64,000 nt of DNA from Trypanosoma brucei (Eukaryota): positions 1,344,001 through 1,408,000 of the forward strand of contig CP000067.1 in the NCBI GenBank assembly GCA_000002445.1, in the 5' to 3' direction. The number at the start of each line of letters is the position of its first letter. The first letter of the stretch is position 1. Position numbers and translations under genes: made by a program. Shown one piece after another: positions 9,040 to 62,796 of the stretch. The notes beneath the pieces were generated by a model, which worked only from the letters and a program-made list of their open reading frames with translations, was not told the DNA's origin and searched no databases.

Positions 9040-9130
9040 GTCCGCATCAGTAGAGACACACAAGAAAAGGAGAAAGACATGAAATAGGAAGAGCATACGA
9101 AGAGACTAAAAACAGTTGAAATAGGAGGTA
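9040..9130 (-). promoter_or_regulatory. Putative polypyrimidine tract (minus sense) upstream of the 1445-aa ORF.
   Basis: The plus strand is a purine-rich run (caagaaaaggagaaagacatgaaataggaagagcatacgaagagactaaaaacagttgaaataggagg). It lies 250-340 nt upstream of start 8787. Confidence 0.3.
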
Positions 9131-9148
9131 TACACATGCACATATAAA

Positions 9149-9170
9149 CATATATATATATATATATATA
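9149..9170. repeat. (TA)n microsatellite.
   Basis: Read directly from the sequence. Confidence 0.9.
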
Positions 9171-10153: not shown

Positions 10154-10171
10154 AAATAAATAAATAAATAA

Positions 10172-10203
<32 letters not shown>
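10154..10203. repeat. Compound microsatellite: (AAAT)6 followed by (TA)~14.
   Basis: Read directly from the sequence. Confidence 0.9.
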
Positions 10204-10206
<3 letters not shown>

Positions 10207-38356: not shown

Positions 38357-40183
38357 CTAGCGTCGCTCAATATCCTCGGTTACTTTTAAGCTTTGCCTCA
38401 CTACCGACTGCTCTAACCGGGTGGCTTCTAAATTCCGCTCCATCTCTTTTTGCTCGTGTGTGACCTCCGGCGATGAGGGGGCGCAGTCGCTTGCGTCGGA
38501 GCCGCCGGCTCGGCCGCGGGCACCGTGCGGTGGGCGCCATTCGGTGAGCGTTAGATTTGGCATCGTGTTGGGCTTGATGTTTGACCGGCCGAGAATCATA
38601 CGAATACATTCAACAAACCCTTGTACCACTGCCGGGTACGCTGCTGTCAGCTTCAGCAGTGAGTACACAGAATCTGACTGTCGAATGGCAAGTGACGCGA
38701 CTTCAACTATGCTTCCTGCGTGAGCCCCGACTGCGCGAACGCCTAGAAGCAGTTTCTGCCGGTCGTTTGTTACAATCACCTTACAAAATCCCTGTGCACC
38801 ACCCATTGCGATGGCACGGCTGAGATGGCTGTAGTCGTAACGCGCAACGATGTAACCGAACCCAAGAGCACGGCATTGTTCCTCGTTGAGTCCAACGCAA
38901 GCCACCTCCTCTTCGAGAAAGAGGATGGTGGAAAGGTTTGTGAGAAGAGAAGAATTAACCGGTCGCGCAGGTTTCTCCCCGTAAATGTGCTCAACAGCCC
39001 CTCGGCCTTGTGCCTCACCGAGGTTCACCAAACCCCGGTCAGCGGAAACATCACCAACAGCGTAAATGTGCTTGTAAGGGACACAACGACCAAAAGCATC
39101 CAGTGTAACCTGTCCGCCGGTGACCTTGCACGCAGTGTTCTCGAGGCCAAGGCCAGAGAGGTTTGGTGTGCGACCCAAAGACACCAGTGCTCGTTCTGCC
39201 TCATACGTCTCCACGCTATTTGCATCATTCCTATTATTCGTTGTGTTGTGTCGCACACTGTACACACATCCCCCAACATCGTCACTCTCCTCCCATGACT
39301 CTAGGTCAAACAGGGTACAGGTGTTGAGAATACGTACCCCCCGTCGCGTAAGATGCTCCTCGACAAAGTTTGCGATATCCTCGTCTTCCTTCGGAAGAAT
39401 CCGTTTGGCTTTGTCGATGATTGTCACTTCTGTGCGGCCAAAGTTGGCGTATATGCTGGCGAACTCACATCCCACTGCACCAGCTCCGATAATTACCAAG
39501 CTTGACGGGATGGGTAACTGCATGATGGTGTCCGTCGTCACGACTCGTCGGTGATCCGCTACAACGAATTCGTGTTGCCGTGGTACGGAGCCTGTAGCAA
39601 TAATGAAGTAATCAGCAGTAAGAACGTGATATTCATTTGCACCGGGGCTATGCACATCCAGTTCATGTGGTGAAGAAAACATAGCCCTTCCAAACACTGT
39701 TGTGACCCCGGCAGCCCGCAACAACTCAACAGTCTGAGTTTCCCGCGTTGCACTAACCTCTTGCAAGGTTTGTTGCACTCTTGATAGGTCCAGTTTCTGC
39801 TGAATTTCCCTCACCGTGTCGTCGTCGAAAACCCGCCGAGCTGACGCTCCGGAGAGAGAGGATACATACTTCGACATTTCCCACAACGTTTTTGACTGTA
39901 ATGCACCATCCCACAGATCGCAACCACCAATACGCTTTGCTTCTACAAGACAGACCCGTTTGTTGTAGTCCACAGCTCGTAGGGCTGCCGCAATGCCAGC
40001 GGGGCCGGCACCAATGACACAAACATCGAAACGAGGCAAATTTGAGGGGATATAACTGACGCAAGCTGATCTCAAGGAACATACCCGGCACAGCCGAATC
40101 ATCACTGTGGTAACGGTATTAATTACTAAAACTACGTGTGGGGGCGTTGTCACGTGAAATGTTGCAGAGATCATAGGAAACAC
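38357..40183 (-). CDS. Dihydrolipoamide-dehydrogenase-like pyridine nucleotide-disulfide oxidoreductase homologue that lacks the redox-active CxxxxC and the catalytic His. It is a predicted pseudoenzyme with N- and C-terminal extensions.
   Basis: FAD motif VCVIGAGPAGIAAA, NAD motif VIIGAGAVGCEFA, and a C-terminal dimerisation domain are all present. Where DLD/GR/TR have GGTCLNVGCIPSK this protein has GGCDLWDGALQSK (a single Cys). Where they have HPTxxE it has YPAVVQGFVE (His replaced by Tyr). Confidence 0.75.
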   Translation of the reverse strand: MFPMISATFHVTTPPHVVLVINTVTTVMIRLCRVCSLRSACVSYIPSNLPRFDVCVIGAGPAGIAAALRAVDYNKRVCLVEAKRIGGCDLWDGALQSKTLWEMSKYVSSLSGASARRVFDDDTVREIQQKLDLSRVQQTLQEVSATRETQTVELLRAAGVTTVFGRAMFSSPHELDVHSPGANEYHVLTADYFIIATGSVPRQHEFVVADHRRVVTTDTIMQLPIPSSLVIIGAGAVGCEFASIYANFGRTEVTIIDKAKRILPKEDEDIANFVEEHLTRRGVRILNTCTLFDLESWEESDDVGGCVYSVRHNTTNNRNDANSVETYEAERALVSLGRTPNLSGLGLENTACKVTGGQVTLDAFGRCVPYKHIYAVGDVSADRGLVNLGEAQGRGAVEHIYGEKPARPVNSSLLTNLSTILFLEEEVACVGLNEEQCRALGFGYIVARYDYSHLSRAIAMGGAQGFCKVIVTNDRQKLLLGVRAVGAHAGSIVEVASLAIRQSDSVYSLLKLTAAYPAVVQGFVECIRMILGRSNIKPNTMPNLTLTEWRPPHGARGRAGGSDASDCAPSSPEVTHEQKEMERNLEATRLEQSVVRQSLKVTEDIERR

Positions 40184-40653: not shown

Positions 40654-42290
40654 CTATTGTTTGCCACCGCCTTGAGCATTTCCCAGCGAACAATAGCCCC
40701 GACCTCGCTCACAGTCAGACGGAGTCCATGTATTGCAGACGAGACCGGGGAATGTACCAGGTTTTAACATGGATGTGCCCAATATGACGCGCAAGCACTC
40801 TAGAAATGCTTGTGAAACGGATGGGTACGCTGTGAGCATTTCACTCAGCTCGTATGCCGACTGTTTACGTTGAATCGCCGCGGTAGCGAACTCTACGATA
40901 GTACTTGCGCTCCATCCCACTACGTGAACGCCGAGAAGCGTCTTTTTACTGTCATTACTCGCGAGTATTTTTACAAACCCTTCGGTGTTGCTTGCAGCCA
41001 CGTTGCGACTGCAGAGTTCAAACCCATACTTGGCCACTACATACGATACATTTTTTGCTCTGCACTGCTTTTCGTTTTTTCCCACGGAAGCTACGGCACT
41101 GTCTAGGAATACAATTCTGGAATGGTCGGGGTGAAGCGGCTCCGTTATGTGTGAACTGTATATATGATCTACTGCCAACCGCCCCTTCGCTTCGCCCATA
41201 CTCACTGACCTGTCACGACCTGTTGCGTCTCCCACGGCGTAAATGTGTTTTTTGTTTACACACCTGCCAAATTCGTCTAGCACAAGTACCCCGTCGCGCA
41301 CTTCGCAGTTAGTATTACGTAGGCCCAGTCCGAAGTAATTCGGTCGGCGCCCAGTCACGGTGAGGCCCCGCTCCACTTCGTACGTCTGAAGTTCATGTGT
41401 CTTGCGGTGCATGATGGTATAGCGAACTCCATTCCCCGAGGTGCCGTCATTTGGTGTCTCCTGGCCATCACTCTCACTTTTGGTCAGTGATTGTAAGCTG
41501 TACAGCAAGCAATCTTGGTGCACCTCTACGCCATGCTTTTCCATTCCCTTCTGTATCGCTGCTGCCATATCATCATCTTCCTTCGGCATTATGCGCTCCT
41601 TCTTGTCTAGTAGAAACACCTTGGTCTTACCAAGCCTGCCGTATGTCATCGCGGATTCACTGCCAAGCGCGCCGCCACCCACCACTACCATGCTTTTTGG
41701 CAGCGGTAACGTCATAAGGTCATCGGAAGTCACCACGTTCTTGTGGTCCACGGGCACATGTGGCTGCGTGACAGGGGCAGAACCTGTGGCGATGATGAAA
41801 TAATCAGCCGTCACCGTTCGGTACTCCTTTGCCTCGCGGCTACTGACCTCTAACTCATGAGGGCTAGCAAAAGCGGCGCGACCGTAGAGTAACGCCACGT
41901 TAGAGGCGCTGAGGGCAGATAGTACCTGCTTTTCCCGCGTCTCGCTCACCTCTTGCAGTTTCTGCAGCATGCGTTCATCATCGAGTTCCATAAAATTTGA
42001 AATGGTAGTTCCATACACCCGTTCGGCGGAACTTCCCCTCGCGCGCCCCAAAAAGTTTGACATTTCCCACAACGTTTTCGACTGAAGTGTGCCATTCCAC
42101 AGATCGCAACCGCCAGTACGTTTTGCTTCTACAATTCAGACCCGTTTGTTGTAGTCCACAGCTCGTAGGGCTGCTGCAACGCCAGCGGGACCGGCGCCGA
42201 TGACACATACGTCGAAATGTGTTTTGCCGAGCGACTGCCAGTAGACGAGGTGTGGTCGCTGGTGCGTGAAGGAGAAACGTGTGTGCCGTA
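40654..42290 (-). pseudogene. Tandem paralogue of the DLD-like gene. It is disrupted by an in-frame TGA at 42136-42138 and has no in-frame ATG upstream of the FAD-binding motif. It is either a pseudogene or an N-terminally truncated product starting at Met 42072.
   Basis: In the frame of ORF 40654..42072 the upstream sequence reads ...GKTHFDVCVIGAGPAGVAAALRAVDYNKRV*IVEAKRTGGCDLWNGTLQSKTLWEMSNFLG. This is homologous to the copy-1 N-terminus, where the stop position is occupied by TGT CTT (Cys-Leu). The rest of the protein is about 55-60% identical to copy 1. Confidence 0.55.
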
Positions 42291-49850: not shown

Positions 49851-52800
49851 TAAAGACTTACCTTCATCGACAAAAGTTAAGTGAAATGATACAGAAACGA
49901 GTGCGCGTCGTACAGTTTCATACCCTCTGAGTCAAAGCCATTATCAACAGCCATATCGACTTAACGAGTATCACAGAATGCATAACACATGTATGCACAT
50001 GTTTGGTATCGCATAGCTTTGTTGATTATTCAAACATCCCCCCTCTCTTGGTGAGAAACTACAATGCTTGTACCATTTGACAAAAAAAAACTTGAGAAAT
50101 ATTTTCACGCGGGGATAGCAGCGCGAATCTTTCTAGAAGGGGGACTAAGACAGTAGGACATTACGCGACATCCAGAGCCGGCACGTCCGTCCCAGTTCAT
50201 CGCTATTCCATGTTGTCGTTTTCCGAGTGGGTTAGAAAAACAGCACAGGTGGGTGAAGCGGTCAAGTCATTTACGAATGACTTTGCTGTTGGCGATTCGC
50301 ACCGTCCCAAAGTTTTTTTTTTCAAAAAAGGGGGAATGCTCCACTCTTTCACCTCGGAGTTGACAGGTGACCGACATGCCATCGACATCGTGTATCCAAA
50401 GCAGCGGCAGCCCGGCCCCAAATGGTTAAACTCCCTGCGCTGAGGTAACGCGCCCCGCATAGGCACATGGAAAATATCCTTACTGATGAGGTTTGAATCA
50501 CCCGCAGCCCTAGTGCTCCCCGCCGACTACCAAAGAAACAACCAACCCTGTTTCCCCCTTCGATAAACAATGCAATGGGGCGACAAACCTTTATCCTACG
50601 GACTGCTGGCCGAAATCCCTGGTGAAACAGCATTTCCGGCTGGTCGTTAAGTGGAGTCAACACGGTACTCACAGCTTACACCGCGCCCGCGCCCACACCC
50701 TCGCCTCGGGGGTCCCTCCCTCCCCCAAGAAACGCCACAGCCGCCGCGGGACGACACCATTCGCTGGTCCCACCGCCCTAGGGAAAATGCGGATGTCAGA
50801 GGATTCTCACCGCGCCATGCTTGGATCCCTTTACCTTCCCTTTTGCCTTTGCCACCGTTGCTTTACACTAAAGTTGGCTCCCACATGCCCGCGGTCGCGT
50901 TCGGACCGTCGTGTTGGGAGCAAAATAATCGCCCTAGCAGTCGACCGGGTGTCTCCCTGTGTGCGCGGGGGCTGTCACCGCTTCGCTGGCAAACCGTTCC
51001 ACGTCGGCTTCCCCAGCAAAAAGTTTGCCACACAACTCGGTGCCGCCCACAGCCACTCCCTGTTCCACGTAGTGAAAGTGCACGTGGGACAGAAGGATTA
51101 ATAATGCACAGCCGAAACACCGGGTATGGCGCCAACGCCTTGTTTGAAAGAAACTGTCCAGGTTGGCCATCAACACAGGAAGACACACAAGTAAACACGA
51201 GAATGCACCAGTTCCATGAGTGAACATGGATTCGAAGGCAAAAAGGGATAAAGGACGAAACAATAATGAAAGCTGTGTCCCCCCCCGCCTTACCTCACCA
51301 ATTGTGGTTAAGAGGCGAACCTGTTGGTTTGGAGGACTTTGGGGCGCACCCGGGTGGAGATGTTTCAGATGCGGAAGGGTTGGAAGAGTTGGAAGGGAGA
51401 TGCGAATCCACCGCCTTACGCGAAGTGGGAGGCACGAAAAGGAAGCACGGCAACTGTAGCAAAAGCAACGTGAATGCCAGTGGTGTGTTTGCGTTGTTTC
51501 CGCGGCGCTGGAAAGTGTGCAAAGACCGGAAAAATAGAGTTGTGGTTCATGTAAAACCGTATGCGTGCAATGCCCGGTGGTGAAGCAGGATTTAAGCAAA
51601 AAAAAAAGAGATAAATACGCGGGAGGGGGGAAAGTTTACGAGTTCAACATGTGAAAGGTGTTTCGTAGCAGGGGCTTCGATAATGCACATCAACCTCGTG
51701 AGTATGCACGGCCCCGTGGCACCGCTAAAGGGACTACGAGCGGTGGAGGGAAAGTGGGGTTAGCCGTAGCCGCGCCGGTGTTGAAACCAAAATAAAAAAA
51801 GGGATGACGTGGAGGTAACAGTTAAAGAAGGAGAGGATAGAGAGATCAGGGTGGGGTTGGAATAAAATGTTCCTAGTAAACTTTTGATGTTCACGGGGCA
51901 CGTGGGGCTCCAGAGAGTAAGGAGAGGTGCGCACTTAAGGCACACACAAGAAAAATGCATACTGAATCCGATTGCGCGCTCCGAGGGGTTTCCTGACGCT
52001 TTTATAAGGAAGTGGAAGGTGTAAAGTGAAACCCACCAGTGCCCCATACTGCGGCTAAACGTAAGCGAGGCGAGTTGGTCTAAAAGGTTTAGTAGGAAGG
52101 TTACACGGCGATGGAAAGAAGGACGTTTACAACAAATTGAAGTTGGGTATCCAAGGATTGCTGAGCCACTTGCCCGAATGCACTGCCGTGGAGAAGCTGA
52201 AGATGAAACATGAACTAATAGGCTTGATGGGGAAAGCGCCTCGCGGGGAGGCAAAAATTGGCGGGGTTCCTTTCCGTTTGACTCCGAAGGGGAGGCCCAA
52301 AAAGAGTACATACCAAAACAGAGGGTAATTCTAAGAGGCAGGACTTGTTTAGTCCCACCAAAATCTGTGGTGAATCATCTTCCAGTTCCTGCGGCAGCTA
52401 CGGTAAGGTTAACGGCGTTGAGCGTAGCAGTGTCACCCCGTCAAAAGCATTAAAAAACGGAATATATGGGACAGTGGTGACATAATTGCAACAGCAAGAC
52501 ATCCCCTTCATTTACGGTAACGGCATGCGCACAGTTGCTCAAATGACGCTCAACCAGCCGATTAAACTTTCCGTGGGATGCAGCTACGACAGTAACCCTG
52601 CGCATACCCTTCCTAACAAGCACCTGCTGGCGTAGAAAATATGAAAAATCATAAGAGACAGCCCGTTACGAGATGTGACCGCAGTGATCCAGCAAGCACA
52701 TGGCTCTATGGTGGAGGTTTTGAATTCCGCAACAACAACAGCTAAAATCATTAAATGATAGAGGGCGCTACACCGTATAGAGCGGTGGGAAGCATGCTCA

Positions 52801-52988
52801 AAACCAAACCCGAAAGAAAGAAAATGTGAACAAGGTTGTCGCGGTTCGTCATCAACTTCGGGAACGGGAGCGATTGAGGTTACAATGAGCCGAGCTTTTT
52901 TTAAAAAAAAAAATCGCCCCTTACCCTTCCCGATTCCTCCACCCCCCCCCCTCCCTACACAAAGGAAAAGAAAAGAAAAAAAGTTACA

Positions 52989-54206
52989 TCAAAACTGCTT
53001 CCCTCTATTCATCTTTATCTGCATCCGCCTGATGCTGTGGAAGAAGAGGGAATCAATAAGGCCAGTTACCGTGTAAACACCGCCGCCTACGGCGCACAGT
53101 TGCAACACCAGATGCACAATGGATGGATATGGGTGTGTACGCTTGACTGAGACGCGAATGGGAGAGAGATCGTATGATATGAACACTCCTGGTACCACAG
53201 ATGGATCATGTTTGGCATTGTTGTTCTCTCCTCCCTTTGGAGTCTCCCAACTTGGGGTGAAGTGATGCGTCACAGAGTATTGGTTAGATTCTACCACGCG
53301 GCCGCCTCCAACTAATGACTCAATACGGTAAACTGTGGGCACCACCTTCACGAAATACGAGAACCGGCCAATTAGAGGCTCGGATGGATCCGTAGCGCCA
53401 CGCACATTTGCCATCCCGTCCATAGGATTACTTTGTCCTGGAAACCGCTCACCAAACTCCAGGGAATGCACGATATGACTAAGATTCAACTTCTGTATAG
53501 TCTCCCCTTTAAAACTATGCAGGTGTTGACCAAAGAAATTAAACATACGACCCGGTATGAAATGAATGTTTCCCGTCACTCGCGGAACACTAAAGGAGGC
53601 GTGCAAGTTACACCCCTCTGTGGACGCACTTGCCGCCGCCATCTTAAGCCGCTCATGCACGCACTGCACAATACTGGCATCGTCTTCGTGGAACTCCCAC
53701 TGGCGCTCCGCAAATGCGCGCCGCACATCATCACAAGTGTGACAACAGTCCCCTGGATTACTCTCGGCACCGTAGCAACTCGGGCACTTTCCATGCTCAG
53801 CTCCGTTCCCATCAGCTGGTTGCTTCTTCATATCCATGAGTGGTCGTGCCTCACCGAGTGGAACCAATGTATCGGGATTCACACGAACCCTGGCAGTGTC
53901 TGTCAGAACATTTTCAACGTGCTCACCAAAGGCGTCAATGGCGTCCGCCGTCATGAGATCACATGGCACCCGTGGGAACGTAATGTTTACTTTCATGTGC
54001 ATGATACCGCCGATATGCGGATCGACGTACATCTCATGTTGTTCCACGGAGGAAAAGAAGTAACGCACCTCACCCACGACGAGAAAAGTGATTATGAAAA
54101 TGGACGCCATGGAGAGAACACCACCAAGCGCCGTACGCTGCCGGGCATCCCGCAAGAAACGCTCGTCAAACTTCGGGAAGACATCAAGGCGGCTGAGGCC
54201 TTTCAT
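52989..54206 (-). CDS. ERGIC3/Erv46-like endoplasmic-reticulum-Golgi intermediate compartment protein (COPII cargo receptor family).
   Basis: Collinear similarity to ERGIC3 across the protein. Shared elements: the N-terminal DVFPKF...TALGGVLSMASIFIITFL TM region; the CPSCYGAE...CCHTCDDVRRAF cysteine motif; FSVPRVTGNIHFIPG; FSYFVKVVPTVY; and the C-terminal TM GGVYTVTGLIDSLFFHS. Confidence 0.8.
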   Translation of the reverse strand: MKGLSRLDVFPKFDERFLRDARQRTALGGVLSMASIFIITFLVVGEVRYFFSSVEQHEMYVDPHIGGIMHMKVNITFPRVPCDLMTADAIDAFGEHVENVLTDTARVRVNPDTLVPLGEARPLMDMKKQPADGNGAEHGKCPSCYGAESNPGDCCHTCDDVRRAFAERQWEFHEDDASIVQCVHERLKMAAASASTEGCNLHASFSVPRVTGNIHFIPGRMFNFFGQHLHSFKGETIQKLNLSHIVHSLEFGERFPGQSNPMDGMANVRGATDPSEPLIGRFSYFVKVVPTVYRIESLVGGGRVVESNQYSVTHHFTPSWETPKGGENNNAKHDPSVVPGVFISYDLSPIRVSVKRTHPYPSIVHLVLQLCAVGGGVYTVTGLIDSLFFHSIRRMQIKMNRGKQF

Positions 54207-54839
54207 GGTACCCCACGACTAAAACAAACGGGCGTTACACCCAGCAAATTATATCGATTTCACTACAACAGAAAAAGAAAGTGGGGTGAAAATGCTAAAG
54301 GGTGCCCGCAGGAGGTGTGAGTGTAGTGGTATTAGTGCTGGTGGAAAAATGCAATATGCAGAGTTAGACAAGTTTTGTGCGAGACTCGGTGCTTATCGAT
54401 ACAAGTCATAAAGTACGTGAAACGGGTTAAAGCATACCTGTGGAAGGTTACTTAGCCAAAAAAAAAAATGGAAAAAAGTGCTTGCCCTACGCGCATTCAT
54501 ATACACTATTTTTTCCCTTTCTATTGCTCCCATTTTCTCTTGTCTAAGTGTTTACGCAGTTGATTACCACATCAACGTTCATATATTTCTTTTGCGTCTT
54601 CTTTAATATATACGTGTGTGGTCTCGCGTTCAGGAGGACAGGGAAGCTGAGAGCACAAGCCCGCAATTACATAAAATGTCTACACAATGAACCACAGAAG
54701 TTTGTTCCTTCTGTGCGTGAGGAATAGTGAAAGGGGAGCTCACAGAATATCCCTACACACACATACATATGTATGTGCATATATTTCAGGGCGGCCTTTC
54801 CAGAAAAAAATATATATATCTAGTCTACGGTAACTCTAG

Positions 54840-56042
54840 TCACACGGCAGGCACCACTAGTTGCACACGCTTGGTGTCGTTTAAAGAATACCTCACGCTT
54901 TGCCCAGAAATCCCACATATGTCGTCGCGATCGCAATCCTGCTCACTTTCCTCGTCCTCAGCGCCTGCCGAGTTCCACGACCCTCGCTGTGTTAACCCTG
55001 ATACCGTGTCACCAGTATGTCGGGTACTGCGGGCATAACCGTCATCGTCTCCATCGGAACCGGTGTCAAGAACAATACTCTTCTGCGCGAAGCTAACTCC
55101 ACGAGACATGGAGCGCGAGGACCGCCGTGACCGTTTTATCCCCAAAAGCGGCTCGTTGTTTCGCATTTCCATTAATTGATTTTCCGTTTCCTCCGCTTGA
55201 CTCGCAGCCTCCTCCCCGCGCCGTGACTCCACATCAAAAAGCGCTTCCGACTGAAGCATGCACAACCTTCGACGATTCTCCAAAGTGGCGAACCTCTCCC
55301 GCACGGCACATGTCTCCTTTTTCAGTCTCTCCTTTTCCTCCATAACTGCGTCGTAGCTTTGGTGCTGTCGCTGCAACTCCTCGAGGGAATGTTTAGCCTC
55401 TTCCACACGGCTGGCGAGATGAACGCACTGCACCTCCGCATTCTTAATCTGTGCCGTGTAGTCCACAATGGGTTCCACGTAATATTGTTGTTCTAGTACC
55501 ACCATTTGCATAAGCTCCACAGCGACCTTTTGTGTTTGTTCTTCCAGTTGCTCTCTCATTCTCTCGAGCTCGATAATTTGGGGGCGAAGCTCCTCCTCCT
55601 CCCTCTTCAGCGACTTTTCTTCCTCTTCAAGTGCAGCTAGTTCGGTCATTGGGGGAGGTAACGTGTTTCTCATCAAGTTTGCGGCATACCGAAAGTAATC
55701 ACTTGCCGAGGTTTCCGTTCCGGTCCCAGAGGTACGTGGGGAAGCGCTCACGTACCCATGCAGGTTTGGTGCCTGTGCTGCGGGGAATTGAGTAATGAAA
55801 GGTGCGGGATTCGTTGCGCGGGTGCTCGTTTCTAGAGAGCCAAGTCGAGGAGCAGTTGCAGCCATAACAAACTCTCCTTGTGCCGCAGCTGTTGGGGGCA
55901 TTGCGTGGCTGGTTGCACTCAAGTGCTGAGGGATGCGTAATGTCGGCACATCGGGCATTGCAAGCGGCAGACCCGTGTTATACGAAGGAGCCAAACCCTC
56001 AGGCTGCCTCTGGTACAGCGGTGGCGTTGATGCGCGCATCAA
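54840..56042 (-). CDS. Hypothetical coiled-coil protein (400 aa).
   Basis: Heptad-like charged segments (EEEKSLKREEEELRPQIIELERMREQLEEQTQK...) are flanked by S/T/P-rich regions. On the transcribed strand. Confidence 0.5.
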   Translation of the reverse strand: MMRASTPPLYQRQPEGLAPSYNTGLPLAMPDVPTLRIPQHLSATSHAMPPTAAAQGEFVMAATAPRLGSLETSTRATNPAPFITQFPAAQAPNLHGYVSASPRTSGTGTETSASDYFRYAANLMRNTLPPPMTELAALEEEEKSLKREEEELRPQIIELERMREQLEEQTQKVAVELMQMVVLEQQYYVEPIVDYTAQIKNAEVQCVHLASRVEEAKHSLEELQRQHQSYDAVMEEKERLKKETCAVRERFATLENRRRLCMLQSEALFDVESRRGEEAASQAEETENQLMEMRNNEPLLGIKRSRRSSRSMSRGVSFAQKSIVLDTGSDGDDDGYARSTRHTGDTVSGLTQRGSWNSAGAEDEESEQDCDRDDICGISGQSVRYSLNDTKRVQLVVPAV

Positions 56043-56821
56043 ACGAATTGCAGCACGGGGGAGCGAGAAAAAAAATCCGCGGAGGAAATACTGGAACAGT
56101 CCGTTAGGTGTATTAGGAATGAAACTGCTCTATTACTGTCCGTGTAAAGGCCTATCGCCCAACTCTAAATGTTTAGGGAGGAAGAAAATGCAAAGGTAGA
56201 ATAGTCGAGGTGCAAGAAAAAAAATAGAACGAAGAAATGTCGCTTTCGTGTGACAACATTGGCAGACGACTTTACCACTACTGCGACGCGACTAGACTAC
56301 AAACAAACGGTGCTGCAGCTCTTACGGGATTACCAAGCGGAAAATAGAAGCACGTACAAAAAATAAAGAATGGAGGCGCGTACCAATACGGGGTTTACTC
56401 TATGAAATATGGTAGTCTATGGGTAAAATTTATGGATGTAAGTGTATGATGCGTCGGCAACAACAACGGTAGTGCTCCACCCCAAGGACAAGCAAAAACA
56501 AGATACGAACGAAAGTCACCAAGAAAAGCGCACGCGTGCGGCAAAAAACAAAACGCGACACTCGTTGCTTCGGAGCACAACCTGTGATTTCTTAACCACA
56601 CAAGTACTTACTTGGTTCACAGCTATTTAATTCAAAAAATGTAGCGATAACGAAAGAAAAGATCTGAAGAAGATCAAACAAAAGAAATCCCGTCAACAAT
56701 GACCGCCTCGATGAGGGGCCTCAAGAGGAGCAGAGGGCAGAACAGGAGAGTTCGCAAACAAGTGCCAAGATAATGTAAAGGTGATAAAGTTGGGGCGTCC
56801 ACGCAGTCCCTCAGTACACTG

Positions 56822-59800
56822 TCATTTCCGGAACACGAACGTCGCCAGGAGACTTTTCTTGAGAACTTCCATTACCTCGCGAATGTTGTTGGCTTTTGTG
56901 CCGTTAACTTCCTCGAGGAACCACACGGGCTTTGACTGATACGTACGCATGAAGGGGTGCAAACGGCGTGGGTCTGAGAGCCTGTACATCGGTAAGGAAC
57001 CGATGGCCAGCGTTTTAACTGTCCAGTCGAACCGCAGGCCAATATCCCACGGAACATCCAAGCTTTGCCGTCGCACTACCAGTCGGTTCTCGTCAAACTT
57101 TTCGATCGCAACACTGCCGTTTGGAAAGATGAGAGCATTGGCAACCAAAGTTGCCTCCGACGGAGAGGAAACGGGTGTGACCGTGGGCAAACCGCTAACT
57201 CTACTCGTGGAAATGAGCGGCACGTCACCAACAGCTTGCGTGACAGCAGCTGCAGTCACATCACCTACCTTACAGACTGGTCTCTGGTTGCGGGCCATCA
57301 CCTGCTTTCTATATCTTTCTAACTTTTTCCTTGCTCTTTCATGTCGCTGCTGTTCAGATAAAGTGCATTCCTGGTTAGACGCAATCCGCGGAGGCCCGTC
57401 ACTGGCACGATTTCCTCCCAACCCCTCCTCTTCCACAACACATCCTTCTTCGTCGGAATTCTTGCGCCCAGCCCCACCCTCAGCCTTCATGCGCTCAGCC
57501 TCTTCCTCAGCCTTCATGCGCTCAGCCTCTTCTTCAGCCTTCATGCGCTTAACCTCTTCTTCAGCCTTCATGCGCTCAGCATCTTCTTCAGCCTTCATGC
57601 GCTCAGCCTCTTCCTCAGCCTTCATGCGCTCAGCCTCTTCCTCAGCCTTCATGCGCTTAACCTCTTCCTCAGCCTTCATGCGCTCAGCCTCTTCTTCAGC
57701 CTTCATGCGCTCAGCCTCTTCCTCAGCCTTCATGCGCTCAGCCTCTTCTTCAGCCTTCATGCGCTCAGCCTCTTCCTCAGCCTTCATGCGCTCAGCCTCT
57801 TCCTCAGCCTCCACGCGCTCAGCATCTTCTTCAGCCTTCATGCGCTCAGCCTCTTCTTCAGCCTTCATGCGCTCAGCCTCTTCTTCAGCCTTCATGCGCT
57901 CAGCATCTTCTTCAGCCTTCATGCGCTCAGCCTCTTCTTCAGCCTTCATGCGCTCAGCCTCTTCTTCAGCCTTCATGCGCTCAGCATCTTCTTCAGCCTT
58001 CATGCGCTCAGCATCTTCTTCAGCCTTCATGCGCTCAGCATCTTCTTCAGCCTTCATGCGCTCAGCCTCTTCCTTCTTTGTCCAAGCATCACTCTGAAGC
58101 TGGTTACGGGAAACCTTTTCTGCCATTCTGCGTGCACCTTTATTCGCTCGCTTCCGCAGAGTTTTTCGTGCTTCAGCAAGTTTTCGGGCTCTCTCAGCCT
58201 TCTTCCTGGCAGCTTCCTCCTCTGCTCTCTTCCTGGCAGCTTCCTCCTCAGCTTTCTTCCTGGCAGCTTCCTCCTCTGCTTTCTTTCTGGCAGCTTCCTC
58301 CTCTGCCTTCTTCCTGGCAGCTTCCTCCTCAGCCTTCTTCCTGGCAGCTTCCTCCTCTGCTTTCTTCCTGGCTGCTTCCTCCTCAGCCTTCTTCCTGGCA
58401 GCTTCCTCCTCTGCCTTCTTCCTGGCTGCTTCCTCCTCAGCCTTCTTCCTGGCAGCTTCCTCCTCAGCTCTCTTCCTGGCAGCTTCCTCCTCTGCTCTCT
58501 TCCTGGCTGCTTCCTCCTCTGCTTTCTTCCTGGCTGCTTCCTCCTCAGCCTTCTTCCTGGCAGCTTCCTCCTCTGCCTTCTTCCTGGCTGCTTCCTCCTC
58601 AGCCTTCTTCCTGGCAGCTTCCTCCTCAGCCTTCTTCCTGGCAGCTTCCTCCTCAGCTCTCTTCCTGGCAGCTTCCTCCTCAGCCTTCTTCCTGGCTGCT
58701 TCCTCCTCTGCTCTCTTCCTGGCTGCTTCCTCCTCAGCCTTCTTCCTGGCTGCTTCCTCCTCTGCTTTCTTCCTGGCAGCTTCCTCCTCAGCTTTCTTCC
58801 TGGCAGCTTCTTCGGCCTTCATGCGTGCCTTTCGTGCTTGAGCGCGTTTTCGCATCTTTTCAGCCTTCTTCCTGGCTGCTTCCTCCTCTGCTTTCTTCCT
58901 GGCAGCTTCCTCCTCTGCCTTCTTCCTGGCTGCTTCCTCCTCAGCTTTCTTCCTGGCAGCTTCCTCCTCTGCTCTCTTCCTGGCAACTTCCTCCTCTGCT
59001 TTCTTCCTGGCAGCTTCCTCCTCAGCCTTCTTCCTGGCTGCTTCCTCCTCAGCCTTCTTCCTGGCAGCTTCCTCCTCTGCTCTCTTCCTGGCAGCTTCCT
59101 CCTCTGCTCTCTTCCTGGCAGCTTCCTCCTCTGCCTTCTTCCTGGCAGCTTCCTCCTCTGCTCTCTTCCTGGCTGCTTCCTCCTCTGCTTTCTTCCTGGC
59201 AGCTTCTTCGGCCTTCATGCGTGCGTTTCGTGCTTGAGCGCGTTTTCGCATTTTTTCAGCTTTCTTCCTGGCAGCTTCCTCCTCTGCTTTCTTCCTGGCT
59301 GCTTCCTCCTCAGCTTTCTTCCTGGCAGCTTCCTCCTCTGCTTTCTTCCTGGCAGCTTCCTCCTCTGCTTTCTTCCTGGCAGCTTCCTCCTCAGCTTTCT
59401 TCCTGGCAGCTTCCTCCTCAGCTTTCTTCCTGGCTGCTTCCTCCTCAGCTTTCTTCCTGGCAGCTTCCTCCTCTGCTCTCTTCCTGGCTGCTTCCTCCTC
59501 AGCTTTCTTCCTGGCAGCTTCCTCCTCAGCTTTCTTCCTGGCTGCTTCCTCCTCAGCTTTCTTCCTGGCAGCTTCCTCCTCTGCTCTCTTCCTGGCAGCT
59601 TCCTCCTCTGCTTTCTTCCTGGCAGCTTCCTCCTCTGCTTTCTTCCTAGCTGCTTCTTCTGCTTTCTTCGCCGTGGTATCTTTCTCTCTCATTCGACTTC
59701 TCGCAGATAATTTCTTAGCGCGTTTCCTTTCCCCATCTGTTTTCGAGCGCTTTTGCCGAGTTTCCAACCTTTCCATCGAAGCCTTCTTCGTTGCTGTGTT

Positions 59801-61111
59801 AAACGCAGTTTCGTCTGTCACTATGTTCATGTTGTTTTTCTGAAATGTTTTTACATCGACAAATGCGGAGAGAATGGGTCTGCTCACGGAGCTGTTGACG
59901 CGCTTCTGTTTTAGCGCATCACCGTTGTTCCGAGCTCTTTCAACTTCACCGGGGGTTTGACACACAAAATCCTTGCTATATACGGGCCCATCCCCATAAT
60001 TTAATCCCTGTGAATGCATTTCGGGGACGTTTCGGGGAAGCACGCTGGAGATGGCGAGATGTGCGGGGGTCGTCACGCTTTGTTTGGTGTGATTGATGCC
60101 GTTTTTCGTGGAAGTCAACTCCACCACTGACGGAGGGAAAGTTGTGTCGCCTTTGGGCTGCCTGGATTCAAATCCTCGTGGGGCGGCATGCGCTTGATGC
60201 CTTGACCCGTTCAAATCGTAGTGGGTCTCAACCTGTGTTCCCTTCGGCCCTTCGACACAATGAGTTGCGCCGATATTTCCCGTAGCCATTGAGAGCGCTG
60301 TACCACCCCTCCAAAGCCGCTGCCGCTCCTCCAGCGCGCTTACAGTCATCTGGACCGCAGTGGTTTGTACGGGAGCAGCCGTCATAGTGGCTGTTTCTGA
60401 AATTCTGGTGTCCACATCAGGTTTTGGAAGTTGGCACTGCGTCCCCTGGTGTTGTTTCATGCTCTTGAATGCCCCCACATCTCCCTGCGCGGTCGGCTCC
60501 GTTTTTTTCTTTGCTTCTGCAACCAACTTGCTGGCATCATCAGAAACCTCTGTTGTGGGCTTACAGTGCATCCCTAGTTGCTGATGTCCCGTTGTCTTGG
60601 TGCCAACTGTCCCCCTTTCCTTATCAGTTACAGACCGTGACTTGGGGTCAATGCCATCGCTAAACTTCGCCACTCCGGGGCGATGTGCCTCGTCAAGCGA
60701 CTTCGGCGGCATCAATGCGGTTTCGAGTTTGAAAGCAGTTGAATTAACAGTCGGAGCAACTCCCGTCGACTGCACTTCTGGTGTGGCAGCGGTTGGGGGG
60801 TTGACGCCGAAGGGCGTGTTCTGATGCTCATACGTGGCCTTACGCCCCTCATGTTGGTGCTGCGCTACTGTCGGTGATAGCGAAGACTTTGGAGTCACAA
60901 GTTTCTGTGCGTGAGCAGCCGTATGGTGGTGGTGACGGCGATGGCGGCGAGCAGCCATAAATTCTTGATTCAGGGATGGGATGAAAAGTGAATGGGAAAA
61001 GAGGGATTTCAACTTCAGAAAGTGAGAAGACGCCAAGGAAAGAAGAGGCCTCAAACCAGAGAGGTTAACAAGCGTCTCTAGGCAATGCCCCAACACACAA
61101 CCGCTGGACAC
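56822..61111 (-). CDS. Giant repeat-containing protein (about 1429 aa) that includes two arrays of 9-aa repeats (AEEEAERMK type and AEEEAARKK type). It has an H-rich N-terminus and a non-repetitive C-terminal domain.
   Basis: Single long ORF. An alternative start is Met 60956-60958 (MAARRHRRHHHH), because the upstream codons translate UTR-like sequence. The repeats are read directly from the sequence. The non-repetitive C-terminal region of about 250 aa suggests a functional globular domain. Confidence 0.75.
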   Translation of the reverse strand: MSSGCVLGHCLETLVNLSGLRPLLSLASSHFLKLKSLFSHSLFIPSLNQEFMAARRHRRHHHHTAAHAQKLVTPKSSLSPTVAQHQHEGRKATYEHQNTPFGVNPPTAATPEVQSTGVAPTVNSTAFKLETALMPPKSLDEAHRPGVAKFSDGIDPKSRSVTDKERGTVGTKTTGHQQLGMHCKPTTEVSDDASKLVAEAKKKTEPTAQGDVGAFKSMKQHQGTQCQLPKPDVDTRISETATMTAAPVQTTAVQMTVSALEERQRLWRGGTALSMATGNIGATHCVEGPKGTQVETHYDLNGSRHQAHAAPRGFESRQPKGDTTFPPSVVELTSTKNGINHTKQSVTTPAHLAISSVLPRNVPEMHSQGLNYGDGPVYSKDFVCQTPGEVERARNNGDALKQKRVNSSVSRPILSAFVDVKTFQKNNMNIVTDETAFNTATKKASMERLETRQKRSKTDGERKRAKKLSARSRMREKDTTAKKAEEAARKKAEEEAARKKAEEEAARKRAEEEAARKKAEEEAARKKAEEEAARKKAEEEAARKRAEEEAARKKAEEEAARKKAEEEAARKKAEEEAARKKAEEEAARKKAEEEAARKKAEEEAARKKAEEEAARKKAEKMRKRAQARNARMKAEEAARKKAEEEAARKRAEEEAARKKAEEEAARKRAEEEAARKRAEEEAARKKAEEEAARKKAEEEAARKKAEEEVARKRAEEEAARKKAEEEAARKKAEEEAARKKAEEEAARKKAEKMRKRAQARKARMKAEEAARKKAEEEAARKKAEEEAARKKAEEEAARKRAEEEAARKKAEEEAARKRAEEEAARKKAEEEAARKKAEEEAARKKAEEEAARKKAEEEAARKKAEEEAARKRAEEEAARKRAEEEAARKKAEEEAARKKAEEEAARKKAEEEAARKKAEEEAARKKAEEEAARKKAEEEAARKKAEEEAARKKAEEEAARKRAEEEAARKKAERARKLAEARKTLRKRANKGARRMAEKVSRNQLQSDAWTKKEEAERMKAEEDAERMKAEEDAERMKAEEDAERMKAEEEAERMKAEEEAERMKAEEDAERMKAEEEAERMKAEEEAERMKAEEDAERVEAEEEAERMKAEEEAERMKAEEEAERMKAEEEAERMKAEEEAERMKAEEEVKRMKAEEEAERMKAEEEAERMKAEEDAERMKAEEEVKRMKAEEEAERMKAEEEAERMKAEGGAGRKNSDEEGCVVEEEGLGGNRASDGPPRIASNQECTLSEQQRHERARKKLERYRKQVMARNQRPVCKVGDVTAAAVTQAVGDVPLISTSRVSGLPTVTPVSSPSEATLVANALIFPNGSVAIEKFDENRLVVRRQSLDVPWDIGLRFDWTVKTLAIGSLPMYRLSDPRRLHPFMRTYQSKPVWFLEEVNGTKANNIREVMEVLKKSLLATFVFRK
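57478..58075 (-). repeat. Tandem array A: about 22 copies of a 27-bp unit (plus strand ccttcatgcgctcagcctcttcctcag) encoding AEEEAERMK/AEEDAERMK.
   Basis: Direct sequence reading. Copies differ only at D/E and V/M wobble positions. Confidence 0.9.
58196..59668 (-). repeat. Tandem array B: about 52 copies of a 27-bp unit (plus strand cttcctggcagcttcctcctctgctct) encoding AEEEAARKK/AEEEAARKR. It is interrupted twice by an identical linker of about 55 bp (KAEKMRKRAQARNARMK), giving a higher-order periodicity of about 400 bp.
   Basis: Direct sequence reading. The linker occurs at about 58806-58862 and again at about 59206-59262. Confidence 0.9.
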
Positions 61112-61977: not shown

Positions 61978-62796
61978 TCAAAAACAATTGCATGTCGCTT
62001 TCTTCACCTTAGTTTCCTTCACAGGACGACAAATGCCCACTATCTTTGCCCTCAACTCCGCGGTCGAAACCTCGACAAACTCAATGTTGCTCTCGCGGAG
62101 AAAGTCGGCGACTGCCTTCTTCAACTTTGCACCCTCAGGTCCCGAGTGCCGACCGGCACCGGTAATAATTTGCATTTCAGCCACCTCACCCACGGAGGCC
62201 TCCCGCAGGCGTTCAACACGCGACTTCAACATATTAACTGCCTCTTCTACTCGCAGGCCATGCATGTCAAAGTAGTCCTTCCCTTTACCCTTGTTTTCGT
62301 TGTTGTGCCTTGCAATGGCATTGGCAGCCTCCTGGTTCTTCAAACGCATTTGCTCGCCCGCCTTCTTTGCCTCTTCCAGCGTTAAGCTGACCTCATGCTT
62401 CTTTCCTTCACCGCGTAACCGAGTAACCTCATCAAGTAATTCTGCACGCTTGGTTGCCCACGCTGCTGCATCCTTACGCAGTCGACTCCCCTCAGGTCCC
62501 TCATAATCGGGGTTAATGGCTGCGTTTATGATGTCACGCACACGACTCGTAGCGTCACTCAACTTCTCCTTGTTGTCAGCGGTAATGCAAACCCTGCAGC
62601 CATCGCTTATGGTAATTGTTGCTCCCGTTTCACACTGCAGACTCTTAATGGTGGACCCGCCCTCGCCAATGACGTGACCAATAAACTCCGGTGGCGCTTC
62701 TATCACCTCCTGCAGTGGATTCATTTCCCCATTTGCTCCTCCCTCGCCGCCTTCCCGGCACCCCGTGACATGCATAGTTGTAAAAAACGGTTCCAA
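61978..62796 (-). CDS. KH-domain plus Smr-domain protein (RNA-binding, nuclease-like Smr).
   Basis: KH motif IGHVIGEGGSTIKSLQCETGATITI. The Smr domain reads DMHGLRVEEAVNMLKSRVERL...MQIITGAGRHSGPEGAKLKKAVADFLRE. Confidence 0.65.
   Translation of the reverse strand: MEPFFTTMHVTGCREGGEGGANGEMNPLQEVIEAPPEFIGHVIGEGGSTIKSLQCETGATITISDGCRVCITADNKEKLSDATSRVRDIINAAINPDYEGPEGSRLRKDAAAWATKRAELLDEVTRLRGEGKKHEVSLTLEEAKKAGEQMRLKNQEAANAIARHNNENKGKGKDYFDMHGLRVEEAVNMLKSRVERLREASVGEVAEMQIITGAGRHSGPEGAKLKKAVADFLRESNIEFVEVSTAELRAKIVGICRPVKETKVKKATCNCF

What the first reader, a model, noticed from the sequence alone, without database searches (positions are those of the whole stretch)
56822..61111. Giant charged-repeat protein with two diverged 27-bp arrays and a higher-order repeat of about 400 bp
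About 2.1 kb of this CDS is made of near-perfect 27-bp units in two blocks (an ERMK type of about 22 copies and an ARKK type of about 52 copies). Block B has an identical linker of about 55 bp recurring after about 400 bp, which means recent unequal crossing-over of a higher-order unit. Such arrays are typically collapsed or mis-sized in assemblies and vary between strains. They often encode immunodominant cytoskeleton-associated antigens in trypanosomatids. The non-repetitive C-terminal domain of about 250 aa (…PMYRLSDPRRLHPF…VWFLEEVNG…) is the likely functional or binding module.
Basis: seen in the sequence. Interest (0 to 1): 0.5.

Follow-up and report, generated by a model that had tools for sequence, protein, structure and literature searches.

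The report
Charged-repeat trypanosome protein with PDZ-like end
This is a real Trypanosoma brucei-group gene, already annotated and most likely Tb927.4.5120, whose product looks like a disordered head, a long charged helical rod encoded by two 27-bp repeat arrays, and a small PDZ-like binding domain at the tail; it is an ordinary repeat protein of untested function.

Summary
One uninterrupted minus-strand ORF (56822-61111) carries two 27-bp arrays. TRF gives 22.7 copies at 94% matches and 54.9 copies at 86% matches, about 2.1 kb in total.

- The likely start is the ATG at 60958, giving 1378 aa and 155 kDa.
- The recurring linker is 70/72 nt identical, not identical, and recurs after 396 bp.
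- The order of unit variants is not shared between sub-blocks (permutation P=0.61). A recent higher-order duplication is therefore not supported.

Synteny and the literature identify the gene as the chromosome-4 member of the Tb927.4.5120/Tb927.8.7260 pair ("kinetoplast-associated protein, putative").

The 766-aa repeat region has no proline, is 63% charged, and has dense i/i+4 opposite-charge pairs. That fits an ER/K single alpha-helix up to about 115 nm long.

Best reading: a spacer or tether with a PDZ-like anchor. Cellular location, binding partner and antigenicity are untested. It is a member of known kinds and of modest interest.

The parts
56822..60958 (-). Most likely CDS: ATG at 60956-60958 to stop at 56822-56824. 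1378 aa, 155.3 kDa, pI 8.8. Ortholog of Tb927.4.5120.
   Evidence: ORF list and translation. Polypyrimidine tract plus AG just upstream of the ATG. Physical parameters. Synteny with calreticulin and RPB1, and the Jackson 2007 pair table.
60959..61111 (-). In-frame extension from an upstream GTG. Probably 5' UTR with a splice-acceptor region, not coding.
   Evidence: the ORF listing uses bacterial start codons. The stretch is pyrimidine-rich with AG sites.
59774..60958 (-). N-terminal low-complexity, probably disordered region (aa 1-395; T/A/V/S/K/G-rich; pI 9.5). It has a basic N-terminus, MAARRHRRHHHH (60923-60958), with no acidic residue before position 37. It also has a conserved island, QMTVSALEERQRLWR (60308-60352).
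   Evidence: Composition. The alignment to the chr8 paralog is only about 22-25% identical, apart from the N-terminus and the SALEE island. No Pfam hit.
57476..59773 (-). 766-aa uninterrupted charged region (aa 396-1161). Counts: 0 Pro, 3 Gly, E 240, A 213, K 136, R 108. Predicted ER/K-type single alpha-helix, up to about 115 nm at 0.15 nm per residue.
   Evidence: Composition and densities of opposite-charge pairs at i/i+4 (0.56 per residue) and i/i+3 (0.33 per residue). No LIVMFWY residues in most block-B windows.
58199..59662 (-). Array B. Three modules, each an 8-aa AEEAARKK starter followed by 14, 12 or 22 units of the 27-bp AEEEAARK[KR] repeat. There are 13 distinct DNA unit variants.
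   Evidence: TRF. Unit parsing. Within-array variation is mostly synonymous, with a per-site non-synonymous to synonymous ratio of 0.12.
59189..59260 (-). Linker 1 (AEKMRKRAQARNARMK) plus the 8-aa starter of module 2.
58793..58864 (-). Linker 2 (AEKMRKRAQARKARMK) plus the 8-aa starter of module 3. It is 70/72 nt identical to linker 1 and lies 396 bp away.
58073..58198 (-). Spacer between the two arrays (AERARKLAEARKTLRKRANKGARRMAEKVSRNQLQSDAWTKK). Its start is a third, diverged copy of the linker: a 20/23 nt core at the same offset.
   Evidence: Local alignment.
57485..58072 (-). Array A. 21 full units and one partial unit of the 27-bp AEE[ED]AERMK repeat, in 6 DNA variants. Its consensus matches the array B consensus at 17/27 nt in the same register.
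   Evidence: TRF. Parsing. Consensus comparison.
57284..57361 (-). Conserved basic helix LSEQQRHERARKKLERYRKQVMARNQ. K15, K16, E18, R21, K22 and Q23 of alignment A1 are invariant across Trypanosoma.
Evidence: Alignment A1.
57209..57229 (-). Conserved short motif GDVPLIS, within a low-confidence linker.
Evidence: D49 and P51 are invariant in alignment A1.
56825..57160 (-). C-terminal DUF7759 domain with a PDZ-like fold. WDIGLRF (inside 57023-57052) occupies the beta1-beta2 loop, where PDZ domains carry GLGF.

Best explanation
This is the chromosome-4 paralog (Tb927.4.5120) of the T. brucei 'kinetoplast-associated protein, putative' pair. It is a 155-kDa protein with three parts.

1. A fast-evolving, probably disordered, basic N-terminal region of about 395 aa. 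It carries two short conserved motifs.
2. A 766-aa proline-free stretch rich in E, A, K and R, encoded by the two 27-bp arrays. In the ARKK array its 9-residue unit places glutamates four residues before arginine or lysine, and the reverse. It should therefore form a stable single alpha-helix (ER/K motif) rather than a coiled coil. Fully extended, that rod would be up to about 115 nm long.
3. A conserved basic helix followed by a kinetoplastid-specific PDZ-like domain (DUF7759) at the extreme C-terminus.

Inferred mechanism: the PDZ-like domain docks onto a peptide of a partner protein. The N-terminal motifs engage something else. The helical rod holds the two ends a set distance apart, acting as a spacer or tether. 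Gain and loss of 27-bp units by unequal recombination changes the rod length without breaking the frame.

Shown here: gene identity, ORF integrity, array anatomy, domain family, and PDZ-like fold of the model.
Inferred: single-helix behaviour, peptide binding, and the spacer role.
Unknown: cellular location. The 'kinetoplast' name is inherited, not tested for this gene.
For: Identity:
- The C-terminal 205 aa are 100% identical to a T. equiperdum protein and 69-70% identical to Tb927.8.7260.
- Calreticulin (28029-29216) and RPB1 (29829-35126) lie downstream on the same strand. This matches the Tb927.4.5020 RPB1 row and pair 18, Tb927.4.5120/Tb927.8.7260, in Jackson 2007 (PMC2212663).

Coding strand:
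- All 21 non-overlapping ORFs of 200 aa or more are on the minus strand.
- The repeat ORF runs into a Pfam domain hit above threshold.
- Array B variation is mainly synonymous: 4 synonymous and 2 non-synonymous segregating sites, per-site ratio 0.12.

Rod:
- 0 Pro and 3 Gly in 766 aa, and 60-67% charged in most windows.
- Opposite-charge i/i+4 pairs at 0.56 per residue.
- No large hydrophobic residues in most array B windows.

PDZ-like domain:
- The AF2 model has pLDDT 84.9.
- The Foldseek top 50 are all PDZ for both models.
- The order of secondary-structure elements matches PDZ, with WDIGLRF at the GLGF position. hhalign aligns it to PSD-95 PDZ3 in roughly the expected register.

Spacer idea:
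- Leishmaniinae orthologs keep the basic N-terminus, the basic helix and the PDZ-like end.
- They replace the ER/K arrays with about 1000 aa of A/P/T-rich sequence. A long middle region is conserved, but not its sequence.
- T. conorhini has AEEEAERKR units, so the 9-aa unit is old within Trypanosoma.
Against: - No experiment on this gene was found in the searchable literature.
- Single-helix behaviour is predicted from composition only.
- Array A carries a methionine in every unit, and its within-array changes are mostly non-synonymous (ratio about 1.0). It may behave differently from array B.
- Repeat copy number in the window cannot be verified without reads.
Confidence: 0.45

Rival explanations
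1. Cytoskeleton- or microtubule-associated repetitive antigen. The charged repeats would bind the acidic tubulin lattice and would be an immunodominant B-cell target, like MARP, GM6 or the K39 kinesin repeats.
For: - It has the long, near-perfect charged tandem repeat layout typical of trypanosomatid repeat antigens.
- A repetitive Leishmania protein with a similar name, LinKAP, is immunogenic and is being tested as a vaccine antigen (PMC12108087).
Against: - The repeat region is close to net neutral (pI 6.1; E+D 249 against K+R 244). It is not strongly basic as microtubule binders usually are.
- LinKAP fractionates and co-localises with mitochondria, not the cytoskeleton. It is on Leishmania chromosome 27, and its orthology to this gene is unproven.
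- A repeat-like peptide from a similarly named T. cruzi protein was poorly reactive.
- No serology exists for this gene.
Confidence: 0.2
2. The repeat region forms a two-stranded coiled coil or a higher-order filament rather than a single helix. The protein would then be a dimeric structural fibre.
For: - Alanine at positions 1, 5 and 6 of each unit, plus methionine at position 8 in array A, could give a weak apolar stripe.
- Long charged helical repeats are often annotated as coiled coil.
Against: - Most array B windows contain no L, I, V, M, F, W or Y.
- Nine residues make 2.5 helical turns, so any apolar stripe switches face at every unit. No continuous seam compatible with heptad or hendecad packing can form. 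This is inference from helix geometry.
- The i/i+4 salt-bridge pattern is the ER/K signature.
Confidence: 0.15
3. A true kinetoplast-DNA-binding or kDNA-condensing protein, as the inherited name suggests. It would act on kDNA like the KAP proteins.
For: - Names of homologs: 'kinetoplast-associated protein, putative' and 'kinetoplast DNA-associated protein'.
- The N-terminus is basic, with no acidic residue before position 37, as in many mitochondrial presequences.
- The chr8 paralog carries an internal deletion and a frameshift in akinetoplastic T. evansi STIB805 (PMC4288722).
Against: - There is no HMG-box or histone-H1-like domain.
- Size and architecture are unlike the small basic KAPs.
- The similarly named LinKAP does not co-localise specifically with kDNA.
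- The name appears to trace to a 1990 T. cruzi KAP paper that I could only see as a citation.
Confidence: 0.1
4. The array sizes and the three-module layout are assembly artefacts.
For: - Repeats of this kind break short-read assemblies. The T. equiperdum contig ends inside the array.
- The exact 1378-aa product is not in the protein collection.
Against: - The frame is kept across 2.1 kb.
- There are 13 plus 6 distinct unit variants in non-periodic order, unlike a collapsed consensus.
- The flanks match T. equiperdum at 99%.
- Only the copy number is in doubt. The existence of the arrays is not.
Confidence: 0.05

Closest known systems
Tb927.8.7260, 'kinetoplast-associated protein, putative' (XP_847555.1, 1028 aa), the chromosome-8 paralog
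   Same: - Same architecture: basic N-terminus (MTARRRHRQRQ), the SALEE motif, an E/A/R/K repeat rod, a basic helix, and C-terminal DUF7759.
- 70% identical over the last 199 aa.
   Different: - The repeat unit is 8 aa (AEEAARKK) rather than 9 aa.
- It is shorter.
- The N-terminal region is only about 22-25% identical.
- There is no ERMK-type second array.
ER/K single alpha-helix (SAH) domains, such as those described in myosin VI, myosin X and caldesmon (from established knowledge of the motif, not read here)
   Same: - Alternating blocks of E and K/R, spaced so that i/i+4 salt bridges form.
- No proline and no hydrophobic seam.
   Different: - At about 766 aa it is far longer than the characterised SAH segments as I recall them (tens to a couple of hundred residues; from memory, not checked here).
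- It is built from near-perfect tandem DNA repeats.
- Helicity and monomeric state are untested.
PDZ domain scaffold proteins (for example CASK, LNX, PALS1 and PSD-95 PDZ domains)
   Same: - Same fold and same order of strands and helices.
- A GLGF-like loop (WDIGLRF) at the equivalent place.
   Different: - No detectable sequence-family membership.
- An extra N-terminal beta-hairpin and a longer alpha1.
- Restricted to kinetoplastids: 17 kinetoplastid hits among 1.84 billion representatives.
- The ligand is unknown.
LinKAP, 'kinetoplast-associated protein-like protein' of Leishmania infantum (LINF_270007500; PMC12108087)
   Same: - Similar inherited name.
- Large share of charged repeats.
- Size varies between species.
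- Leishmaniinae DUF7759 proteins carry the same product name.
   Different: - It lies on Leishmania chromosome 27. From memory, the syntenic region of this gene (calreticulin and RPB1) is on chromosome 31.
- Whether LinKAP has a DUF7759 domain could not be checked, because no sequence was available.
Kinetoplastid DUF7761-DUF7762-DUF7759 proteins (for example T. brucei XP_846155.1, 746 aa)
   Same: - They share the C-terminal DUF7759 domain.
- In at least one member (P0023), the preceding basic helix and the D-x-P-[LV]-V motif are also shared.
   Different: - They have two further DUF domains.
- They have no repeat rod.

Membership tests
Pfam DUF7759 (PF24945) | Match to the family HMM above the gathering score | tested here: met
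   116.5 bits against a cut-off of 27, E=6.1e-34. Profile positions 3-109 of 109, at residues 1272-1377.
KAP-like DUF7759 subfamily (Tb927.4.5120 / Tb927.8.7260 orthologs) | DUF7759 at the extreme C-terminus, preceded by the basic helix KKKLERYRKQ and a D-x-P motif | tested here: met
   Invariant K15, K16, E18, R21, K22, Q23, D49 and P51 in alignment A1 of seven Trypanosoma sequences.
Chromosome 4/8 duplicon pair 18 of T. brucei (Jackson 2007) | Position on the chromosome-4 side, near calreticulin and RPB1, and a sequence distinct from the chr8 copy | tested here: met
   Calreticulin at 28029-29216 and RPB1 at 29829-35126, on the same strand. 70% identity to Tb927.8.7260 in the C-terminus only. 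Pair table in PMC2212663. The calreticulin gene number is from memory.
PDZ domain | Sequence match to PDZ family models or to solved PDZ sequences | tested here: not met
   No PDZ family among Pfam hits at E<=1. A profile of 20 sequences finds nothing in PDB sequences at E<=10.
PDZ domain | PDZ fold: a six-stranded beta-sandwich with two helices in the canonical order | tested here: met
PDZ domain | Carboxylate-binding GLGF-type loop between beta1 and beta2 | tested here: inconclusive
   WDIGLRF lies between strands 36-41 and 51-55 of the model. The W is invariant across the 20 aligned sequences. The G-L-R-[FY] residues are conserved in the KAP-like subfamily but not in the DUF7761/7762 proteins. 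Model coordinates could not be inspected.
PDZ domain | Binds C-terminal or internal peptides in the beta2/alpha2 groove | not testable with these tools
   Needs peptide arrays, pull-downs or a co-structure.
ER/K single alpha-helix | High density of i/i+4 E-K/R pairs, no helix breakers, no hydrophobic seam | tested here: met
   0.56 opposite-charge i/i+4 pairs per residue in array B windows. 0 Pro and 3 Gly in 766 aa. 0% LIVMFWY in most array B windows.
ER/K single alpha-helix | Monomeric, stable helix in solution | not testable with these tools
   Needs CD, SEC-MALS and SAXS on recombinant repeats.
Coiled coil | Hydrophobic residues at heptad a/d positions or equivalent | tested here: not met
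   No large hydrophobic residues in array B. The 9-residue period equals 2.5 turns (plus helix geometry). No dedicated coiled-coil predictor was run.
Kinetoplast-associated proteins in the strict sense (KAP3, KAP4, KAP6 type) | HMG-box or H1-like small basic DNA-binding protein | tested here: not met
   Only DUF7759 is found in Pfam. The protein is 155 kDa with a near-neutral repeat region.
Kinetoplast-associated proteins in the strict sense | Localises to kDNA | not testable with these tools
   No localisation data for this gene were found.
'Hint domain plus GPI anchor' membrane protein, as Jackson 2007 described Tb927.4.5120 | A Hint domain, and a C-terminal hydrophobic GPI signal or an N-terminal signal peptide | tested here: not met
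   No Hint family hit at E<=1. The C-terminus is ...KKSLLATFVFRK and the N-terminus is MAARRHRRHHHH. Neither is hydrophobic.
Immunodominant tandem-repeat antigens of trypanosomatids | Recognised by sera of infected hosts | not testable with these tools
   Only indirect data on similarly named proteins.

The most novel reading that the evidence does not exclude
The two paralogs would be length-tunable molecular rulers. Each would be a rod of up to about 100 nm of ER/K single helix, among the longest proposed, whose length is set by tandem-repeat copy number. A kinetoplastid-only PDZ-like domain would anchor each rod to a mitochondrial or kinetoplast-associated structure. Strain-to-strain copy-number change, and the 8-aa versus 9-aa units of the paralogs, would then tune a physical spacing inside the cell.
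Probability: 0.12. Interest if true: 0.55.

Novelty: new member of a known kind. Interest (0 to 1): 0.3.

Why it matters
- It gives a testable structural reading for a gene family that carries only an inherited name and a 'domain of unknown function' label.
- DUF7759 appears to be a divergent PDZ-like domain confined to kinetoplastids.
- The repeat arrays probably encode a rigid charged rod rather than merely antigenic filler.
- For genome work, this locus is one where short-read assemblies break and where copy number should not be trusted.
- Beyond that it is an ordinary trypanosomatid repeat protein.

Tried and rejected
1. Recent higher-order repeat. Unit variants were coded and compared in the higher-order register, with 10,000 shuffles. 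No excess sharing was found. Rejected.

2. Plus-strand ORFs inside the arrays (56949-58097, 58078-59649, 58838-59710). These are stop-free frames of the repeat unit. They have no flanking domain and run opposite to the polycistron. Rejected as genes.

3. Homolog search with the N-terminal 433 aa found nothing. I do not use this as evidence of absence. The same tool failed to recover a database protein from its own C-terminus.

4. Two strong-looking hits, P0015 and P0017, in the representative search. They are tandem-repeat ORFs from a bird genome that score by adding many weak matches. False positives.

5. Sequence-level PDZ membership: negative.

6. PDB sequence search with the C-terminal 205 aa: only chance-level hits.

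7. Link to LinKAP. No sequence is given in the paper or its supplement. Unresolved.

8. The afdb50 fold library was unavailable.

9. The 1990 T. cruzi KAP paper is not held.

10. Searches for alternative gene identifiers, and for PDZ-like domains in T. brucei, returned nothing. DUF7759 is mentioned in no searchable paper.

11. The 'Hint domain and GPI signal' description of Tb927.4.5120 in Jackson 2007 is not supported by Pfam or by the termini.
Full report

Yes. The mechanical ORF list shows one stop-free frame at 56822..61111 on the minus strand, 1429 codons from a GTG.

Tandem Repeats Finder reports two arrays of period 27:
- 57459-58072: 22.7 copies, 94% matches, score 1053.
- 58193-59656: 54.9 copies, 86% matches, score 2014.

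Together they span about 2.08 kb. The remaining 56.8 kb of the window holds only one small 33-bp repeat, so the arrays are a singular feature here.

In-frame parsing gives:
- 21 full AEE[ED]AERMK units plus one partial unit.
- 48 full AEEE[AV]ARK[KR] units.

**2. Corrections to the anatomy**

*Start codon.* The ORF tool uses bacterial start codons. The first ATG is at 60958. A pyrimidine-rich tract with AG dinucleotides lies directly upstream, which is the usual trypanosomatid trans-splice acceptor context. The protein is therefore most likely 1378 aa, 155.3 kDa, pI 8.8.

*Layout of the ARKK array.* It has three modules of 14, 12 and 22 units. Each opens with an 8-aa AEEAARKK unit and closes with a linker, AEKMRKRAQAR[N/K]ARMK. 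The two clear linker copies (59189-59260 and 58793-58864) are 396 bp apart and 70/72 nt identical. The spacer after module 3 begins with a third, diverged linker copy, sharing a 20/23 nt core at the same offset.

I coded the 13 DNA variants of the unit and compared the modules in the higher-order register. There were 2 matches against a shuffle mean of 2.0 (P=0.61). Only the linker is shared. Either the triplication is old and the 27-bp units have since turned over within each module, or the linkers are held constant by selection.

*Relation of the two arrays.* Their consensus units agree at 17/27 nt in the same register. T. conorhini carries the intermediate unit AEEEAERKR. The two arrays are therefore diverged descendants of one old 9-aa unit.

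**3. Which strand codes, and is it a gene?**

- All 21 non-overlapping ORFs of 200 aa or more in the window are on the minus strand, as expected for a polycistronic unit.
- The repeat ORF continues into a C-terminal region that hits Pfam DUF7759 at E=6.1e-34.
- Within the ARKK array, variation is mostly synonymous: 4 synonymous and 2 non-synonymous segregating sites, per-site ratio 0.12. This points to constraint at the protein level.
- The ERMK array does not show this pattern (ratio about 1.0).
- The three plus-strand ORFs inside the arrays are stop-free frames of the unit and are not genes.

**4. Identity**

The C-terminal 205 aa are 100% identical to a T. equiperdum protein. They are 69-70% identical to the T. 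brucei TREU927 'kinetoplast-associated protein, putative' XP_847555.1. That protein sits on a 2.48-Mb contig, and the literature identifies it as Tb927.8.7260.

Jackson 2007 lists Tb927.4.5120/Tb927.8.7260 as pair 18 of the chromosome 4/8 duplicon. The same table lists Tb927.4.5020/Tb927.8.7400 as RPB1 (PMC2212663).

The window carries calreticulin at 28029-29216 and RPB1 at 29829-35126, with about nine further ORFs between RPB1 and this gene. That spacing fits the numbering 5020 to 5120. The window gene is therefore the chromosome-4 member.

[quoted passage not shown] There is no Hint hit, and neither terminus is hydrophobic.

**5. Assembly and strain variation**

The T. equiperdum contig (L001, 5365 bp) begins inside the ERMK array. 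It is 99.0% identical to window 52257-57627. Of the 11 nucleotide differences in the shared 777-nt CDS, 10 lie in the last four repeat units.

A mis-assembled contig end cannot be excluded. Copy number in the window cannot be verified without reads.

**6. The C-terminal module**

An alignment of 20 DUF7759 domains (A2) gave an AlphaFold2 model with mean pLDDT 84.9 and pTM 0.72.

- Foldseek returned only PDZ domains in the top 50 for both models, at E about 1e-2.
- The order of elements fits the PDZ pattern: strand, WDIGLRF loop, strand, strand, helix, strand (VWFLEEVNG), helix (IREVMEVLK), strand (ATFVF). WDIGLRF sits where PDZ domains carry the GLGF loop.
- At sequence level there is no membership. 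There is no Pfam PDZ hit and no PDB hit with the profile. hhalign to PSD-95 PDZ3 aligns in roughly the expected register but with probability 4.6%.

I therefore call it PDZ-like by fold, not a member of the PDZ sequence family.

The exhaustive search of 1.84 billion representatives found 19 hits. Seventeen are kinetoplastid: the named ones are Trypanosoma, Leishmania, Porcisia, Leptomonas, Lotmaria and Phytomonas, and the unnamed ones are close relatives of these. The other two are false positives from a bird genome.

A second kinetoplastid family combines DUF7761, DUF7762 and DUF7759.

Upstream of the domain, a basic helix (KKKLERYRKQ) and a D-x-P motif are conserved.

**7. The repeat region**

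Residues 396-1161 (766 aa) contain 0 Pro, 3 Gly, 240 E, 213 A, 136 K and 108 R.

In ARKK windows, 67% of residues are charged. Opposite-charge pairs occur at 0.56 per residue at i/i+4 and 0.33 per residue at i/i+3. Same-charge pairs are absent, and there are no large hydrophobic residues.

Nine residues make 2.5 helical turns, so the alanine stripe alternates faces and cannot form a coiled-coil seam. That is an inference from helix geometry.

This is the signature of the ER/K single alpha-helix motif, known from established work on myosin VI/X and caldesmon. At 0.15 nm per residue, the rod would be up to about 115 nm long.

Leishmaniinae orthologs keep the basic N-terminus, the basic helix and the PDZ-like end. 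They have about 1000 aa of A/P/T-rich sequence in place of the arrays. This is consistent with a spacer whose length matters more than its sequence.

**8. Mechanism, and how sure**

Best reading (confidence about 0.45): a spacer or tether.
- The PDZ-like end binds a partner peptide.
- The conserved N-terminal motifs (a basic N-terminus and QMTVSALEERQRLWR, both shared with the paralog) bind something else.
- The charged rod keeps the two ends apart.
- Unequal recombination adds or removes 27-bp units without frameshift.

Shown: identity, ORF, arrays, domain family, and fold of the model. Inferred: helix state, peptide binding, and the spacer role.

Location is unknown. Hints for a mitochondrial or kinetoplast link:
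- The inherited names.
- An N-terminus with no acidic residue before position 37.
- The truncation of the chr8 paralog in akinetoplastic T. evansi (PMC4288722).

The similarly named Leishmania LinKAP is mitochondrion-associated but not kDNA-specific, and it is immunogenic (PMC12108087). However, it lies on chromosome 27, and I could not establish that it belongs to this family.

**9. Rivals**

- Cytoskeletal repeat antigen: 0.2.
- Coiled-coil fibre: 0.15.
- True kDNA-binding KAP: 0.1.
- Assembly artefact, for copy number only: 0.05.

Details are in the rival entries.

**10. Novelty and score**

The gene is annotated and was noted in a 2007 comparative paper. The domain is already a Pfam DUF. 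Charged tandem-repeat proteins are common in trypanosomatids.

What is new here is modest: the PDZ-like fold assignment for DUF7759, the single-helix reading of the arrays, the corrected start codon, and the rejection of a recent higher-order duplication.

I rate it a new member of known kinds, interest 0.3.

Noticed in passing
window 56949-58097, 58078-59649 and 58838-59710 (+ strand): Three long plus-strand ORFs (382, 523 and 290 aa) lie entirely inside the arrays, with products such as SSWQLPPLL repeats. They are stop-free frames of the 27-bp unit and are very unlikely to be genes.
   Followed up: partly
window about 8800-12200: An AT-rich gap with no ORF of 200 aa or more, GC 0.30-0.40 against about 0.50 elsewhere, and strong local AT skew. 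It lies between the 1445-aa ORF (4450-8787) and the 669-aa ORF (12186-14195).
   Followed up: no
window 4450-8787 (-) and 12186-14195 (-): Two large ORFs (1445 aa and 669 aa) have no Pfam family at E<=1e-4.
   Followed up: no
window 38357-40183 (-) and 40654-42072 (-): Two adjacent genes of the pyridine nucleotide-disulphide oxidoreductase family, with Pyr_redox_2 and Pyr_redox_dim domains. They look like a tandem pair of paralogs.
   Followed up: no
window 61978-62796 (-): The gene directly upstream encodes a small KH plus DUF1771 plus Smr protein (272 aa).
   Followed up: no
window 20481-21509 (-): A 342-aa ORF with a strong alpha-kinase family hit (E=2.3e-51).
   Followed up: no
window 997-1113: A short imperfect CTG-rich repeat of 33-36 bp (about 3.4 copies) lies inside the enoyl-CoA hydratase ORF (111-1592).
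   Followed up: no
P0041 (T. brucei XP_846155.1, 746 aa; not in the window): A second kinetoplastid family combines DUF7761, DUF7762 and DUF7759. The window's domain also hits DUF7762 weakly (E=0.0058), so these DUFs may all be related PDZ-like domains.
   Followed up: partly
P0015 and P0017 (hawfinch genome; not in the window): Two tandem-repeat ORFs from a bird assembly reached E=2e-33 and 5e-26 against the DUF7759 profile by summing 18-25 weak partial matches. They are false positives and a reminder to check multi-stretch hits.
   Followed up: yes
tool behaviour: The word-indexed homolog search returned nothing for the C-terminus of a protein that is itself in the collection. Its 'no hit' for the N-terminal 433 aa of this gene therefore says little.
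   Followed up: yes
literature: Tb927.8.7260 in T. evansi STIB805 (PMC4288722): The chromosome-8 paralog has an internal deletion and a frameshift in an akinetoplastic T. evansi strain. The authors themselves remarked on this, given the 'kinetoplast-associated' label.
   Followed up: partly
literature: LINF_270007500 (PMC8715437): All four Colombian L. infantum genomes share a stop-lost variant in the LinKAP gene. The 660-aa reference model may therefore be truncated.
   Followed up: no
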